This document shows, piece by piece, positions 1-9,000 of a DNA stretch of 64,000 nucleotides. Source of the DNA: Leucoraja ocellata (Eukaryota); assembly GCA_036785375.1 (NCBI GenBank), contig JAWMAR010001278.1, positions 186,001 to 250,000 on the forward strand. Reading direction: 5' to 3'. The position numbers are program-made. Positions within the stretch are counted from its first letter, which is position 1, and each line of letters starts with the position of its first letter.

Positions 1-3000
1 CCCCTTCCTCCAGCAGGGTCAGCAGAGAGAATGGTGATTAAAAAAAAAATTAATATATCTCTGATTTGTCATCGATGGTACAAATCCTCCGCACCCCATA
101 AGGCGGGGGGCGGGGGGGGGGGGGGGGCTCTGAGTGAGGTGGCCAAAAATGACGTCCGTAGGTGGCGGCGTTCTGTCGGAAATCGCAGCACAGTGGGCCA
201 AACGCGGTCAAGATCAGAGATTTAGTAATATAGATAGATGCAGCACGCAAACAGCATCTGCACTCATCGAGACCGTGCCGAGCATCAACCTGCTACTTAC
301 ACTAATCTGACATCTGTTGCATTCTCCATATATGCTATTATCCCCATATCCCACCACTCCCTCGATTCAAAATTCAGCAGACTAGTCGGGGAAATGCGCT
401 CCACCTCATCATTGAAATTTGCAGGTTGCCGGAAACCGGGCTAAGCCTACGTGGTCAGCATGTGAAAGTGCAAATTCCGCAGTCAACAGGCAGAGGAGAG
501 GACCAAGTGCAAGATTAACTCGGGAACCTTCTGCTGACTGATTGTGGGGTGGGCTGCGCTGAAGGCAAGCAAAGACCAGGACAAACCAGCGCCAGTAACA
601 GGTTACCTCAATCAGGGTGTTTCTTTGAAAGGCCAAGGCAGGGCCGGAATTAGATGAACTAAGCTGTTCCACTTGTGAGGACCCTCTTAATCCCCCACCC
701 CCACGACTGGAGAAAGATTGGCCGCCAACGCTAGTGACTGTGTGATCCCAAGAGGAACACATCGTTGTGAGCTGCAAATTGGTTAACCCACTTTTAATGG
801 AGGAGGGGGGAATGTTTTACGGGTGGTTTGTGTTTAAACGAAATATGAGGTGCTGTTGCCGGCACTTGCGTGTGGCCTCACTCTGTTAATTGAGGAGTCT
901 CATGACAGAAATGAATGGCATGGTAATGGGAAGAGGAGTAAAAATGGTTCGCCACTGGAAGATCGAGTAAGCCTTGACAAGTCGAATGTATGAGCCCTCC
1001 AACAATGTGGTTCCTAATTGGATGATTATATCTTACTGTCCATGGTTAGAGTCGGTCCAACAGTCTTTCAATTCTTCCAAGTGCTTCAGTATGAGATTCA
1101 CCCACAGGAGGAAACCGGTTACCATAAAGTACAAGATGGGGCACTCCACCCAGGAAGAGGTGAAACATCATCCCTACATGGGAGTGGAACTTAGCAGTGA
1201 TTTTAAATGGTCTATTCACATCAACCAAAGGATCACCAAGGCTAACAGAATGCTGGGATTGCAGAAGAAAAATATTTATTGTTGTTATAATTAGAATTAG
1301 ATCCTTTATATGTCATTTAACAGAACCAAGTGTATAGCCTGCAAGACTCTGATGAGACCCAAACGTTCAGTATTGCTCTGCGGTCTGGGATCCACAAAAC
1401 AAAACAGATGGGGACAAGTTAGAAAGAATTCAAAATAGAGTTGCAAGGTTTATCGTTGATGATTACAGCAGGGAGTCCAGTATCACTGAAATCCTTGCTG
1501 ATCTAGAGTGGGGAAACTCCTCAAGACCGTAGGACCAAATTACATCTGACGACCATCTATAATGAAATGCATGGGTTTATTCCAAGCAACATCAAGAGTC
1601 ATCATCAATCGACAAATTCATCCAGTGAACCAAAGAGCTGGTAATCGGGGGTTATCAAATAAAACATCATCCCAACAAATAAAGACTGTTATAGGTATTA
1701 ACTGCACCCAAAGACAATTCACAAATATAATCATCTCCACCATGACATTCGCACTGCACCCGACATCAAGACTTTCAAGACCATGCTAGAAACAATCAAT
1801 ATTAAGATGCTGACTTCCAAGGCCCACTTCAATATTTAATTGCGACTTTGCACATGACCCACCTCATATATGCGACAACCCGTGACGTCAAGATACAGAC
1901 ACAGAAACAGACTGCATCTTCTGACTGGGATAAACTGCCCCCACTTGGATATTCTGACTGTGCGGGATCGGTCCTGTTGTGATGCAGACTGGTTGTCGCA
2001 CTGAGTTCATCAACAAGACGATTGATAAATCAACTTTTTTGTTGTCACAAGTCAGGAATGACCCAAGGAGACTGTCATCCCTGCCCTCAGTGCACTGTTG
2101 CATTTACCACGGCAGAGTTCCTTACACGGCATTTAAAAAGGCATCCTAAAGCACCCAGACCAATGTCAGCTGGATAACCCAGATTCACAATGTAAACGTG
2201 GGCAGAGTCCGTTCACACCATCTGAAGGAAGGAGTGGAATTGGAAAATCTGGTGATCAACAAGAACGAGAAAGGGGAGATGGCATGAATGTGTCGAATGT
2301 GGGAAGTGTTTCACGTGGGCAGGGAGCCTTCACCGACACCTGTCGATCCAAACCGGAGAGGCCACACAAATGTTCGGACTGTGGGAAGAGCTTCACATAT
2401 TCAGGGGTCCTCCAGAAATACTATTGGATACACACTAGTTCTCACAGTGCACACATACTCATAAATCTGGTGCACTTGGGAATTTGTTACTGAATGGCAG
2501 ATTTTCCAGGCTATTGCATATTAAAATATTACTTCATCTGCATTGTTTAGTTTAGTTTAGAGATACAGCGCGGAAACAGGCAGTTGGCCTATCGAGTCCG
2601 CTGCGACCAATAATTCCCGCACATTAACACTATCCTACACACACTAGGGACAATTTACAGTAAACCTGTACGTCTTTGGTGTGTGGGAGGAAACCAAAGA
2701 CCTCGGAGAAAATCCATGCAGGTCACGGGGAGAACGTACAAGCTCCGTACAGATAGAACCTGTAGTCATGATCAAACCAGGTCTCTGGCGCTGTAAGGCA
2801 GCAACTCTACAGCTGCGCCATCTTGCCGCCCCCAAATGTAACCATTCTCATTGTTCCAACGAAGTCGACAAAATCTTGTGGAGCAGCACCACGTCTGGGT
2901 GTGGTGCAATCCTTGAGGTCGTCATCAATATGGGCAATTTCAGATAACTAGCCTTTGCAGTTTGTATCAGAACTGGCCACATCATGTGACTGCAGCCAGT

Positions 3001-6000: not shown

Positions 6001-9000
6001 ACAGATGCTGCCTGGCTTGCTGATTATCTCCTATTCTATCTCCGACAACTTATTATTTTTTACAATAGTAGTTTTGCAGCAGCCCCTGGGTGCTTCAGTG
6101 TGGGGGAAGCCCATGATATTCACTGTATTCATTGCCAGAAATATAGACACTGATGTCTGTTGGCTGGAAGCTGCAATCTTGAATCTTGACAGGCAACATT
6201 TAGGGTCTGGACCTTTCCGGCAGATCAAGCCTGACCTGTACCCTAAATGCAGTTTCCTCTCTTACTGTCATACGGTTTATTACTTCATAGAATCAATAAT
6301 ATTTTGATATTGCTGGAATGCAATTAACAACTGATTTATTTGAACCCTAGAAAACAACTCCCTATATTCTTTGCGAAGAAATGTCTCATTTCTATCCTGA
6401 AGAAGTTACCCTTTATTTTAAGCTGTTGACACTTTATACTGGAATTGTCCTGTATTTAATAAACAAATGATATTTTAAAATCAGTTTTGGAATTAATATC
6501 TGATTATTTCAGATTATGCACCAAAGTACAATGTTTGTTTTTCCAGGATGTTGACGTTCAAAGACATTGCTGGCTATTTTTCCATGGAAAATTTGAAGAA
6601 ATAAGTGACTGGGTGAAGGTCCGTTATAAGAACATGAAGCAGAATTATGAAGCCGTGCTTGTCATTGGGGTTTGTGGAAAATATTACTTCCCTTTTATTT
6701 GCTTTTTTTTAATGATGCATGCTGATATGAGTTTTTTTCTCCTACATGATATCTAAATGCTTTCTGAGACCAGGTCCTTCCATTTCACTCCACTGGTTTA
6801 CTTTGAGAATGTGTCTGAGGCCGGCCGGCTTCACCCTCAGCAACGCTGCATTGATGCACACGCGGCTCATGCAAGCGGTTTCCCCAGTTTGTGTACGATG
6901 CGCTTGTGACGTGGACCCTGCTCCTCCATCCACTGTGAGGTTCCCACGGTAGGCGAGGAAACCGTGTGTGTGTGTGGGACCCCGGTGAGTGTGGGCGGAA
7001 GGGAGAGCGAGGTCAATGTCAGGAAATGGGGGCGAGACGGAAGGAACTGCTGATGCAGGATTACAAATCAACACAGCACTGGAGTAATTCAGTGGGTCAG
7101 GCAGCATTTGTGGAGGACATGGATAGGCCACGTTTCGAGTCGGGACTCTGTGAGGAGGGACTGTTGTGAGGGACAGAGGGTAGGAGGGTCTGAGTTGTGA
7201 TGGACGAGGGTTTGAGGGGAAGTCAGGAGGGACTGAGGGATGGTGAGACAGGGTAAGGAGTGAACAAGTCAAGTCAAGTTTATTTGTCACATACACATGC
7301 TAGATGTGCAGTGAAATTAAAGTGGCAATGCTCGCGGAATTTTGTGCAAAAGACAAACAACCAAACCAACTATAAACACAATCATAACACACATATTCTT
7401 TTACATAATATATAATGGAAGGAAAAACGTTCAGTAGAGTTAGTTCCTGGTGAGATAGGCGTTTACAGTCCGAATGGCCTCTGGGAAGAAACTCCTTCTC
7501 AACCTCTCCGTTCTGACCGCATGGCAACGGAGGCATTTGCCTGAACGTAGCAGCTGGAACAGTCCGTTGCAGGGGTGGAAGGGGTCGCTCATGATATTGT
7601 TGGCTCTGGAGTTGCACCTCCTATTCCTCTCACAGAACAGCGCTTCCTCATCATCCCTTCCGCAACACGGAACTCCTTCACCCCCTCCACCCACAGTGTA
7701 GCTCTCCCTCCTCACTCTCCCTAATACAATGCAGCATTCCCTCCTCACCACCTCTACCAAAGCACGGTTCTCCCTCCTCACCGCCCCAGGCGGGAACATA
7801 TGCATTCTCGCCCGATGGACAGACTGAGAGAGGACCAGAAAGAAGTCAGAGTTTTTGTTTTAGTTTAATCACAGATACAATGTGGAAACAGGAACCGTCC
7901 CCGCCGACCAGCGATCACCTTTACATTAGTTCTATCCTACACACTAGGGACAATTTACAGTGGCCAATTAATCTGTAAACCTGTCTGTCTATTGAATATG
8001 GGAGGAAACCAGAGCACCCGGAGAAAACACACACGGTCACAGGGAGAACGTGTCAACACAATACAGACAGCACCCATAGGCAGAATCTAACTTGGGTCCC
8101 TGGCGTTGTAAGGCAGCAACTCTACCGCTGTGCCACCATGCTGTCCTTGCGATCCCCCTGTCACAGGTTCAAGGAAGACTGAGCCACTAGGCCAAACCCG
8201 AGACCACCTGCAATGGTCAGGTCTGGACTGCTGGAAAGAAGCCTATACAAGGCTTCAACCTCAGGCTTATAGAGTGGCCTTGGCAAGCCTGAGGTGCCAG
8301 TGATTCTTCTGGCCCACAGACAACGACGGACTGTACCCACACACATACACACAGGCATAGACTGCCCGACAGGATAATCGAGAGACTGCAATCATCACTT
8401 CTTCAAGCCCAAAGGTTGAGCTGCCAGGAAGAAATCTGCACTGCCAGCACTGCTTATGGCAAAGGTGGACTGCAGAAAGAAGCCTGAGGTCGCCACAACT
8501 CCTCCTTTGAAGATCACAGAAATAAGATGTTGGGACAAGCCCGAGATCACCAGCATCTTGCCCAACAGCGCCAGAGACCCAGGTTCAATCCCGACTATAG
8601 GTGCTTGTCTGTACGGAGTTTGTACGTGTGTGTTTCCCCGAGATCTTATGTTTCCTCCCACACTCCAAAGAGGTACAGTTTGTTGGTTAATTGGCTTAGT
8701 ATAAATGTAAATTGTCCCCAGTGTGTGCTGCAAAGTTTCTGCGCTGTTTCTCTAAAGTAAACTAAAAACAATCAATGCTGTTAATGGTCTTGCCATTAAC
8801 TCTACACTCTCTCCTTGTGCCTTCATCCTCCCAAAGTGCGCACCTCACACTTGCTCGGATTAAACTCCGTCTGCCATTTCTCCGCCCATTTCTGCATCTG
8901 ATTTTCATCCCAACGTATCTTCCGACAGCTTACTCTCTGTCTGCAACGCCTCCACACTTGGTGTCGTCAGCAAACTCACTCAGCCACACAGTGGCGGACG

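What the first reader, a model, noticed from the sequence alone, without database searches (positions are those of the whole stretch)
2052..6933. Hidden PRDM9-like remnants in tail-to-head order (ZF exon upstream of promoter and KRAB exons)
Seen: a post-SET-type finger plus two dead C2H2 fingers at 2.05-2.44 kb, then a CpG promoter, an ATG exon, an ancestral KRAB exon and a post-KRAB exon. Established: in PRDM9 the KRAB comes first and the ZF array last, and PRDM9 is repeatedly duplicated, truncated and lost in vertebrates. Inference: this is the end of one copy followed by the start of a second, i.e. a decayed tandem PRDM9 duplication beside a Siglec gene. No SET or SSXRD exon was recognised. 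This bears on whether the lineage still uses PRDM9-directed recombination hotspots.
Basis: partly seen in the sequence, partly recalled or inferred. Interest (0 to 1): 0.75.

Follow-up and report, generated by a model that had tools for sequence, protein, structure and literature searches.

The report
Decayed PRDM9 exon relics in a skate
Two broken leftovers of the recombination-hotspot gene PRDM9 (its last zinc-finger exon and, 4 kb further on, a CpG island with its first KRAB exon) lie beside a Siglec gene in what looks like a skate genome; they are ordinary pseudogene remains, but they mark a place where the PRDM9 status of skates and rays can be tested.

Summary
Window 2052-2436 (+) is a relic of the terminal PRDM9 exon. 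It matches shark PRDM9-like proteins from the start of their last exon: tblastn E 2e-22 to 7e-12 and profile E 1.9e-9. It has one intact post-SET-type finger, three frame changes, a stop at 2175-2177, and two fingers that each lost a zinc ligand. The rest of the array and the C-terminal tail are absent.

Window 6547-6669 (+) is a PRDM9-type KRAB exon with intact splice signals. It is 23 of 37 identical to shark PRDM9 KRAB and has one base missing in an A-run. A CpG island lies at 4401-4900.

Two parts of the observation fail. The "post-KRAB exon" is no better than chance, and the "ATG exon" has no homology. No SSXRD or SET exon exists anywhere in the 64 kb, on either strand. The Siglec neighbour is confirmed and is skate-like.

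A tail-to-head tandem origin is plausible, because shark gene models show the same order. It stays untested because the upstream flank lies outside the window. This is a new member of a known kind, of moderate interest.

The parts
2052..2436 (+). Relic of the terminal PRDM9 exon: post-SET-type finger, linker and two dead fingers. Three frame changes, near 2175, 2263-2272 and 2358-2364.
   Evidence: tblastn against shark PRDM9-like proteins gives E 2e-22 (P0001) to 7e-12. The profile gives E 1.9e-9 at profile positions 387-421. The frameshift-aware alignment finds 61-71 identical of 120-128 codon pairs.
2082..2144 (+). Intact C2H2 finger of the post-SET type.
   Evidence: Regex scan. Pfam zf-C2H2_5 27.5 bits. 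PDB 4ijd_A (PRDM9) residues 191-217, E 5.5e-4, ranked 4th behind generic finger proteins. It aligns to the single finger that follows the SET domain in P0004, P0005, P0010, P0013 and P0014.
2175..2177 (+). Stop codon (TAA) in the frame of the post-SET finger, 10 codons after its last His.
2289..2351 (+). Dead finger 1: the second zinc His is replaced by Gln at 2349-2351.
   Evidence: Pfam zf-C2H2_11 30.3 bits.
2371..2433 (+). Dead finger 2, in another frame: the first zinc His is replaced by Tyr at 2419-2421. No further fingers and no shark-type C-terminal tail follow.
4401..4900 (.). CpG island, single-copy in the window between 4475 and 4843, with a run of 19 G at about 4573-4591. It holds the window's densest cluster of TGACG half-sites and two CACGTG boxes.
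4652..4747 (+). Candidate first exon: ATG, 32 codons, then a GTGAGT donor. It is not supported as coding and could be a 5' untranslated exon.
   Evidence: No Pfam hit and no PRDM9-profile hit.
4842..5329 (.). Minisatellite with a unit of about 16 bases, directly after the CpG island.
6547..6669 (+). PRDM9-type (ancestral) KRAB exon of 123 bases, with splice signals intact and the reading frame broken once.
   Evidence: Representative search: 3 hits, of which 2 are PRDM9-type. tblastn E 1.6e-7 to 1e-4. Profile E 2e-8 at positions 15-46. 23 of 37 identical to P0004, P0006, P0007, P0008 and P0011.
6588..6591 (+). Run of four A where one base is missing relative to every PRDM9 KRAB compared. It leads to a stop at 6602-6604 in the first frame.
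   Evidence: same position in 6 of 6 alignments.
6780..6933 (+).
31352..32674 (+). Neighbouring Siglec-family gene (context): a V-set exon and a C2-set exon. A further Ig-like ORF at 36966-37358 was read by eye only.
   Evidence: Pfam V-set 45.1 bits and C2-set_2 38.8 bits. 51 named Siglec/CD33/MAG-like hits, the best 74% identical, from Amblyraja radiata.

Best explanation
These are two non-functional fragments of PRDM9-type genes. They lie on the same strand in tail-to-head order, in a genome that looks like a skate's, about 25 kb upstream of a Siglec-family gene.

Fragment 1 (2052-2436) is what is left of a terminal exon. The single finger that follows the SET domain is still intact. The frame then breaks three times and a stop follows the finger. 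The only two array fingers left have each lost a zinc ligand. The remaining array and the C-terminal tail are gone.

Fragment 2 is a CpG-island promoter region (4401-4900) followed 1.7 kb later by the KRAB exon (6547-6669). That exon keeps its splice signals but has lost one base. No SSXRD, zinc-knuckle or SET exon follows it before the Siglec gene or anywhere else in the window.

Most likely history (inferred): PRDM9 stood here in tandem copies, as in sharks. The window catches the 3' end of one copy and the 5' end of the next. Both lost function. The second copy lost its body by deletion and transposon turnover, since 7-31 kb is filled with LINE, Penelope-like and hAT-like ORFs. The CpG island has kept its CpG content, so it is probably still unmethylated in the germ line. 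It may still fire, giving a non-coding or truncated transcript (inferred, not shown).
For: - Homology to PRDM9, terminal exon: tblastn of 13 proteins places the start of the shark terminal exon on 2049-2436, with E 2e-22 to 7e-12.
- Homology to PRDM9, KRAB: the same searches place the KRAB box on 6541-6672, with E 1.6e-7 to 1e-4.
- Profile: the PRDM9 profile hits only these two places among 3473 six-frame peptides.
- Exhaustive search: the KRAB exon searched against 1.84 billion representatives gave 3 hits. Two are PRDM9-type: P0001, and P0003, which carries KRAB, SSXRD, PR and finger domains. The third, P0002, is a spurious repeat protein.
- Damage: three frame changes and a stop in the finger exon, and one frame change in the KRAB exon, at the same place in 6 of 6 alignments. 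Two zinc ligands are lost.
- Relaxed constraint: shark KRAB boxes differ from each other at 1-3 of 38 positions (P0004 against P0006 and P0008). The window differs from them at 14 of 37.
- Exon structure is kept, with an acceptor at 2050-2051 and acceptor and donor around 6547-6669. These are therefore unprocessed genomic copies, not retrocopies.
- Tandem precedent: P0001 and P0009 (sawshark) read from fingers into KRAB. P0005, P0012 and P0014 (basking shark) share one contig. Baker et al. 2017 report PRDM9 duplications in cartilaginous fish (PMC5519329, passages).
- CpG island.
Against: - The upstream copy is not seen. Its SET exons, if any, lie outside the window, so 'end of one copy' is an inference.
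- The KRAB exon has a single lesion, in a homopolymer. This is also the commonest kind of assembly error, so that exon by itself could be intact in the animal.
- A preserved CpG island is not what one expects of a long-dead promoter.
- Small or fast-evolving exons such as SSXRD could escape tblastn and the profile. Baker et al. note weakly predicted SSXRD in a shark.
- No expression or read data were available.
Confidence: 0.7

Rival explanations
1. The KRAB exon belongs to a live gene. The missing base is an assembly error in the A-run. The CpG island is its active promoter. The exon splices to downstream exons that are not PRDM9-like or are too short to detect, giving a KRAB-only or chimeric protein.
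For: Only one lesion, and it lies in a homopolymer. Splice signals are intact. The CpG island is preserved and has a dense TGACG cluster. Shark annotations contain PRDM9 pieces fused to other genes (P0011, P0012) and forms without SET (P0001, P0009).
Against: 14 of 37 residues differ from a shark KRAB consensus that is otherwise almost invariant, including the conserved Trp before the break. Pfam KRAB scores only 11.9 bits against a cutoff of 20.4, for the first half alone. No partner exon was found in 57 kb. The ORFs of 110 aa or more between 7 and 31 kb look transposon-derived or low-complexity by eye. The only two of them tested, the hAT-like ORFs at 9711-11018 on the minus strand, had no Pfam hit.
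Confidence: 0.12
2. There was no tandem duplication. A single PRDM9 copy was scrambled by deletion, inversion or transposon-mediated movement of exons, leaving its last exon upstream of its own promoter and first coding exon.
For: Both relics are single-copy in the window. They are flanked by interspersed repeats at 2545-2831, 3665-3781 and 4082-4474. No second set of exons is seen.
Against: It needs a special rearrangement that keeps the strand, whereas tail-to-head neighbours arise directly from tandem copies, which sharks have. Both exons keep their own splice signals and local context.
Confidence: 0.15
3. The similarity is chance or generic: an ordinary C2H2 zinc-finger gene fragment plus an unrelated ORF.
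For: In the PDB search, generic finger proteins outrank PRDM9. Pfam KRAB is below its cutoff. The first word-based search found nothing.
Against: The match covers the non-repeated PRDM9-specific finger and linker at the exon start, not just array fingers. Profile E-values are 1.9e-9 and 2e-8 in a set of 3473 peptides. Two of the three hits of the exhaustive search are PRDM9-type.
Confidence: 0.02

Closest known systems
Shark PRDM9 / PRDM9-like proteins: P0004 Carcharodon carcharias, P0005 Cetorhinus maximus, P0010 Heterodontus francisci, P0013 Scyliorhinus canicula (names as given by the sources)
   Same: The KRAB box is 20-23 of 37 identical (P0004 23, P0005 20). The start of the terminal exon, with the single post-SET finger, the linker and the first array fingers, has 61-71 identical of 120-128 codon pairs.
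   Different: The shark proteins carry SSXRD-like, zinc-knuckle and PR/SET regions, 8 or more intact fingers and a conserved C-terminal tail. The window has none of these, and its reading frames are broken.
Sawshark gene models without SET: P0001 and P0009 (Pristiophorus japonicus, labelled 'zinc finger protein 419/420-like' by UniRef)
   Same: A finger array is followed in the same orientation by a KRAB box, and the KRAB is joined to the post-SET finger without a SET domain. P0001 is the best hit of both window exons.
   Different: They are open reading frames with many intact fingers. They are predicted models, possibly read-through of neighbouring copies. The window pieces are broken and 4 kb apart.
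Known PRDM9 pseudogenes and truncated paralogues: canid PRDM9 pseudogene (Baker et al. 2017, passage) and primate PRDM7 (recalled, not from a call)
   Same: PRDM9-derived copies that have lost the DNA-binding array or the reading frame after duplication or relaxed selection.
   Different: Those keep most exons in order. Here only the two ends survive, and they belong to a cartilaginous fish.
Canonical KRAB zinc-finger genes of tetrapods
   Same: A KRAB box and C2H2 fingers occur in one neighbourhood.
   Different: The order is fingers before KRAB. The KRAB scores below the Pfam cutoff and is nearest to PRDM9-type KRAB. The first finger is the PRDM9 post-SET finger.

Membership tests
PRDM9/PRDM7 (by descent) | PRDM9-type (ancestral) KRAB box encoded in one exon | tested here: met
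   6547-6669. Profile E 2e-8. 23 of 37 identical to shark PRDM9 KRAB. The frame is broken once.
PRDM9/PRDM7 (by descent) | SSXRD motif and zinc knuckle between KRAB and SET | tested here: not met
   There is no significant hit for profile positions 47-386 among 3473 peptides; the best is E 6.3, in a LINE ORF. The only tblastn matches to this region with E up to 1 are weak ones (E 9e-4 to 0.12) inside that LINE reverse-transcriptase ORF at 19733-19981 on the minus strand, taken as spurious.
PRDM9/PRDM7 (by descent) | PR/SET methyltransferase domain | tested here: not met
   No hit on either strand of the 64 kb: motif scan, tblastn with 13 proteins, profile. The upstream flank outside the window is not testable.
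PRDM9/PRDM7 (by descent) | Single C2H2 finger directly after SET, at the start of the terminal exon | tested here: met
   2082-2144 is intact and aligns to that finger in 7 of 7 PRDM9-like proteins that have it: P0001, P0004, P0005, P0009, P0010, P0013 and P0014.
PRDM9/PRDM7 (by descent) | Long tandem array of intact C2H2 fingers | tested here: not met
   Two fingers only, each lacking one zinc ligand and lying in different frames. No other finger array exists in the window.
PRDM9/PRDM7 (functional gene) | Uninterrupted reading frame | tested here: not met
   A stop at 2175-2177 and three frame changes in the finger exon. One frame change and a stop at 6602-6604 in the KRAB exon. The KRAB lesion could be an assembly error, and no reads were available.
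Canonical KRAB zinc-finger proteins | KRAB-A box reaching the Pfam KRAB gathering score | tested here: not met
   11.9 bits against a cutoff of 20.4 for the first half. No hit for the second half.
Siglec family (neighbouring gene) | N-terminal V-set domain followed by C2-set domains, with nearest named relatives being Siglecs | tested here: met
   Pfam V-set 45.1 bits, Ig_CD22 25.9 bits (below its cutoff of 27) and C2-set_2 38.8 bits. 51 hits, all named Siglec, CD33, MAG or sialoadhesin-like except one perlecan-like model. Sialic-acid binding was not tested.

The most novel reading that the evidence does not exclude
The window is the ancestral elasmobranch PRDM9 locus, which stays linked to the Siglec cluster. 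In three sharks the PRDM9-like and Siglec-like proteins are reported on a contig of the same length. In the skate lineage PRDM9 has decayed at this locus. Skates, and perhaps batoids as a whole, would then be a further independent vertebrate loss of PRDM9-directed recombination. In line with this, a search seeded with a shark PRDM9 N-terminus returned 12 of 12 hits from sharks and none from batoids. The same database holds Siglec-like proteins of seven batoid species.
Probability: 0.2. Interest if true: 0.6.

Novelty: new member of a known kind. Interest (0 to 1): 0.35.

Why it matters
PRDM9 decides where meiotic recombination hotspots fall. Its repeated loss or truncation across vertebrates is the main natural experiment for how hotspot control evolves (Baker et al. 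2017, passages).

Cartilaginous fish are sparsely sampled in that work. Two species appear in the passages seen. No paper in the searchable library links PRDM9 with Amblyraja, Leucoraja, Scyliorhinus or batoids, and the one that mentions elasmobranchs is off-topic.

A dated, located PRDM9 relic next to a conserved neighbour gives a concrete anchor. With it one can ask whether skates still have an intact copy. It also shows how tandem PRDM9 copies decay: fingers and body are lost first, while the promoter and KRAB exon last longest. By itself the finding is an ordinary pseudogene.

Tried and rejected
- Word-based homologue search with the KRAB part of the ORF 6463-6756, longer proteins: 2 candidates, none scored.
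- PDB search with the KRAB ORF: 0 hits.
- PDB search with the finger ORF: PRDM9 chain 4ijd_A came only 4th, behind generic finger proteins. It is suggestive, not decisive.
Pfam was therefore not run on the whole window. A local PRDM9 profile on six-frame peptides was used instead.
- Cluster look-up of P0001 and P0003 could not be made.
- tblastn hits at 19733-19981 (-) to the SSXRD/knuckle region (E 9e-4 to 0.12) lie inside a LINE reverse-transcriptase ORF. The hit at 58161-58418 (-) (E 4e-8) matches a transposon-like tail of model P0006. Both were rejected as PRDM9 exons.
- An apparent match of 'QE*PK' at 2053-2067 to the end of the shark SET exon appeared in 1 of 5 alignments. It was rejected, because in sharks that segment appears, from the variable junction sequences of the models, to lie before the exon junction.
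- I considered that the window KRAB belongs to a divergent paralogue type (second KRAB of P0001, and P0010), because they share two residues. Overall identity is lower (19 of 37 and 13 of 32) than to canonical shark KRAB (23 of 37), so this was not supported.
- ESM Atlas with the shark PRDM9 N-terminus (P0005, residues 1-400) only confirmed the PRDM7/9 family and gave no useful taxa.
- No structure or complex prediction was run, since none would bear on a pseudogene call.
- Exons were searched one at a time.

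
Full report
What the window is. The DNA is not human-like. The Ig V-set exon at 31352-31753 finds 51 Siglec/CD33/MAG-like proteins of sharks and rays. The closest are 66-74% identical and come from the skates Amblyraja radiata and Leucoraja erinacea. Pfam confirms V-set and C2-set domains. I therefore treat the window as coming from a skate-like batoid. A run of N at 63541-63740 was left untouched.

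The finger exon (2052-2436, +). A pyrimidine tract and AG at 2050-2051 precede the block.
- In one frame it encodes an intact C2H2 finger at 2082-2144. This is the only intact C2H2 pattern on the + strand of the window; the one on the minus strand, at 48015-48080, lies in an ORF with stops nearby and is unrelated.
- A TAA at 2175-2177 follows.
- Next comes a finger whose second zinc His is Gln (2349-2351). A third finger lies in another frame, and its first zinc His is Tyr (2419-2421).
- Pfam sees generic fingers: zf-C2H2_5 at 27.5 bits and zf-C2H2_11 at 30.3 bits.
- In the PDB the PRDM9 chain 4ijd_A matches with its post-SET finger (residues 191-217, E 5.5e-4), but ranks behind three generic finger proteins.

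tblastn puts the start of their terminal exon (post-SET finger, non-repeated linker, first array fingers) on 2049-2436, with E 2e-22 (P0001) to 7e-12. A profile of 10 PRDM9-type proteins gives E 1.9e-9. A frameshift-aware alignment against five proteins finds 61-71 identical of 120-128 codon pairs. All five alignments show three frame changes, near 2175, 2263-2272 and 2358-2364. After the second array finger nothing PRDM9-like follows. Sharks have eight or more fingers and a conserved C-terminal tail, and neither is found anywhere in the window.

The CpG island and the 'ATG exon'. Windows 4401-4800 and 4501-4900 have GC 0.62-0.66 and CpG observed/expected 0.96-1.0, against 0.46 for the whole window.
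- The core, 4475-4843, is single-copy in the window. A 16-base minisatellite follows at 4842-5329.
- Six of the window's 41 TGACG sites and two of its 10 CACGTG sites fall in 4529-4750. This is the densest TGACG cluster in the window.
- An ATG at 4652 opens 32 codons that end at a GTGAGT donor at 4748. These codons match neither Pfam nor the N-termini in the PRDM9 profile.
- Their phase continues into the second KRAB frame, not the frame that holds the start of the KRAB box.
- I read this block as a promoter, perhaps with an untranslated first exon. That is inference.

The KRAB exon (6547-6669, +). AG at 6545-6546 and GT at 6670-6671 bracket 123 bases.
- The first frame starts with an ATG at 6548, carries the start of a KRAB box and stops at 6602-6604. 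The second frame carries the rest up to the donor.
- Pfam KRAB sees only the first half, weakly: 11.9 bits, E 0.18, against a cutoff of 20.4.
- An exhaustive HMMER search of the exon's second frame against 1.84 billion representatives gave 3 hits with E up to 0.001.
  - P0001 is a sawshark model with two KRAB boxes, an SSXRD-like stretch, the post-SET finger and a finger array, but no SET.
  - P0003 is an unnamed complete PRDM9-type protein with KRAB, SSXRD, PR and finger domains.
  - P0002 is a spurious repeat protein.
- A homologue search seeded with the first 200 residues of P0001 returned 12 proteins, all from sharks. Several are named PRDM9-like or PRDM7-like and carry KRAB plus SET.
- Against these the KRAB exon gives tblastn E 1.6e-7 to 1e-4 and profile E 2e-8.
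- In 6 of 6 frameshift-aware alignments there is a single break, in the run of four A at 6588-6591, where one base is missing.
- Read through with X at the break, the box is 23 of 37 identical to five canonical shark KRAB boxes. It is 18-21 of 37 identical to five others (two at 19, two at 20) and 13 of 32 to the truncated P0010.
- Shark boxes differ among themselves at only 1-3 of 38 positions in the pairs I compared (P0004 against P0006 and P0008). The window's 14 differences, including the loss of a conserved Trp, therefore point to relaxed constraint. Part of this may simply be the older skate-shark split.

What is not there.
- The 'post-KRAB exon' (about 6780-6933) fails. Pfam finds nothing. 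Its ORFs do not appear among profile hits even at E 100. In Smith-Waterman comparisons with the post-KRAB segment of five proteins, the local ORFs rank 22nd to 2227th of 3473.
- No SSXRD, zinc-knuckle or SET exon is found on either strand of the 64 kb by motif scan, tblastn with 13 proteins at E up to 1 or the profile (best E 6.3 for positions 47-386).
- The only other tblastn hits lie in transposon ORFs and were rejected (19733-19981 and 58161-58418, both on the minus strand).
- By eye, the ORFs of 110 aa or more between 7 and 31 kb are LINE reverse-transcriptase pieces, a Penelope-like GIY-YIG piece, hAT-like ORFs and low-complexity runs. Only the two hAT-like ORFs were put to Pfam, without a hit.
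- Exons were searched one by one. I did not search or fold any joined exon model.

Interpretation. Both core pieces descend from PRDM9-type genes, keep their exon boundaries (so they are not retrocopies) and are broken. Their order, with the last exon 4.1 kb upstream of a promoter and first coding exon on the same strand, is what neighbouring tandem copies give. Sharks provide precedent:
- Sawshark models P0001 and P0009 run from a finger array into a KRAB box.
- Three basking-shark PRDM9-like models share one contig.
- Baker et al. 2017 mention duplications in cartilaginous fish (passages).

The main rival for the KRAB piece is that its single homopolymer lesion is an assembly error and that the CpG island still drives some transcript. 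I give a live coding gene 0.12. A scrambled single copy gets 0.15.

Wider question. Whether this lineage still uses PRDM9 cannot be decided from one window. Two hints are worth following.
- Linkage. That covers 4 of the 5 Siglec hits from species that have both. The relics may thus sit at the ancestral locus.
- Absence from batoids. The shark-seeded search returned no batoid protein (0 of 12), although seven batoid species have Siglec-like proteins in the same database. That search needs shared five-residue words and covered only residues 1-200, so this is weak evidence.

Literature. I found no paper in the searchable library that treats PRDM9 in skates, rays or catsharks. Searches gave 0 papers. 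One search gave one irrelevant paper. One search gave one paper, on teleosts, of which I read passages. One search was too loose to be informative. Supplementary species tables of Baker et al. 2017 and Cavassim et al. 2022 were not seen and may bear on this.

Verdict. This is a new member of a known kind (PRDM9 pseudogene fragments). Its interest is moderate, mainly as an anchor for testing PRDM9 status in batoids.

Noticed in passing
window 31352-37358 (+): Siglec-family gene. It has a V-set exon (31352-31753), a C2-set exon (within 32168-32674) and a further Ig-like ORF (36966-37358, no Pfam hit at E 0.01). The best named relatives are skate CD33-like and Siglec-12-like proteins at 72-74% identity, so this particular family member is not in the protein database as such.
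   Followed up: partly
P0001 and P0009 (sawshark); P0011 and P0012 (bamboo shark, basking shark): Shark annotations contain PRDM9-derived models without a SET domain, where KRAB is joined directly to the post-SET finger and array. They also contain models fused to a TRIM-like or an Ig V-set gene. These may be read-through of tandem neighbours or real KRAB zinc-finger genes born from PRDM9.
   Followed up: partly
window 4529-4750: The densest cluster of TGACG (CRE half-site) motifs in the window, 6 of 41, plus 2 of 10 CACGTG boxes and a run of 19 G. All lie inside the CpG island. Whether this marks a germ-line promoter is not known.
   Followed up: partly
window 9711-11018 (-): Two adjacent long ORFs (154 and 279 aa) that look like a hAT-type transposase remnant by eye. 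There is no Pfam hit at E 0.01.
   Followed up: partly
window 11107-17600, 19754-20781, 25411-26518, 39740-44660, 54862-59316: Many LINE reverse-transcriptase ORF fragments and a Penelope-like GIY-YIG piece, identified by eye from the ORF list. The window is transposon-rich.
   Followed up: no
window 2545-2831, 3665-3781, 4082-4474, 5654-5734, 7039-7146: Short interspersed repeats with up to 4-20 overlapping matches elsewhere in the window, separating the PRDM9 relics.
   Followed up: partly
window 29039-29855 and 38326-39410: Strongly strand-skewed low-complexity tracts (GC skew -0.70 and +0.74) that read as Pro/Thr/His-rich or Gly-rich repeats in all frames.
   Followed up: no
window 46000-48100 and 23600-24300: Further CpG-rich stretches (observed/expected 0.75-1.0, GC 0.54-0.74). 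The second overlaps a low-complexity repeat. No gene was assigned to either.
   Followed up: no
window 63541-63740: Run of 200 N (assembly gap or mask). It was left as it is.
   Followed up: no
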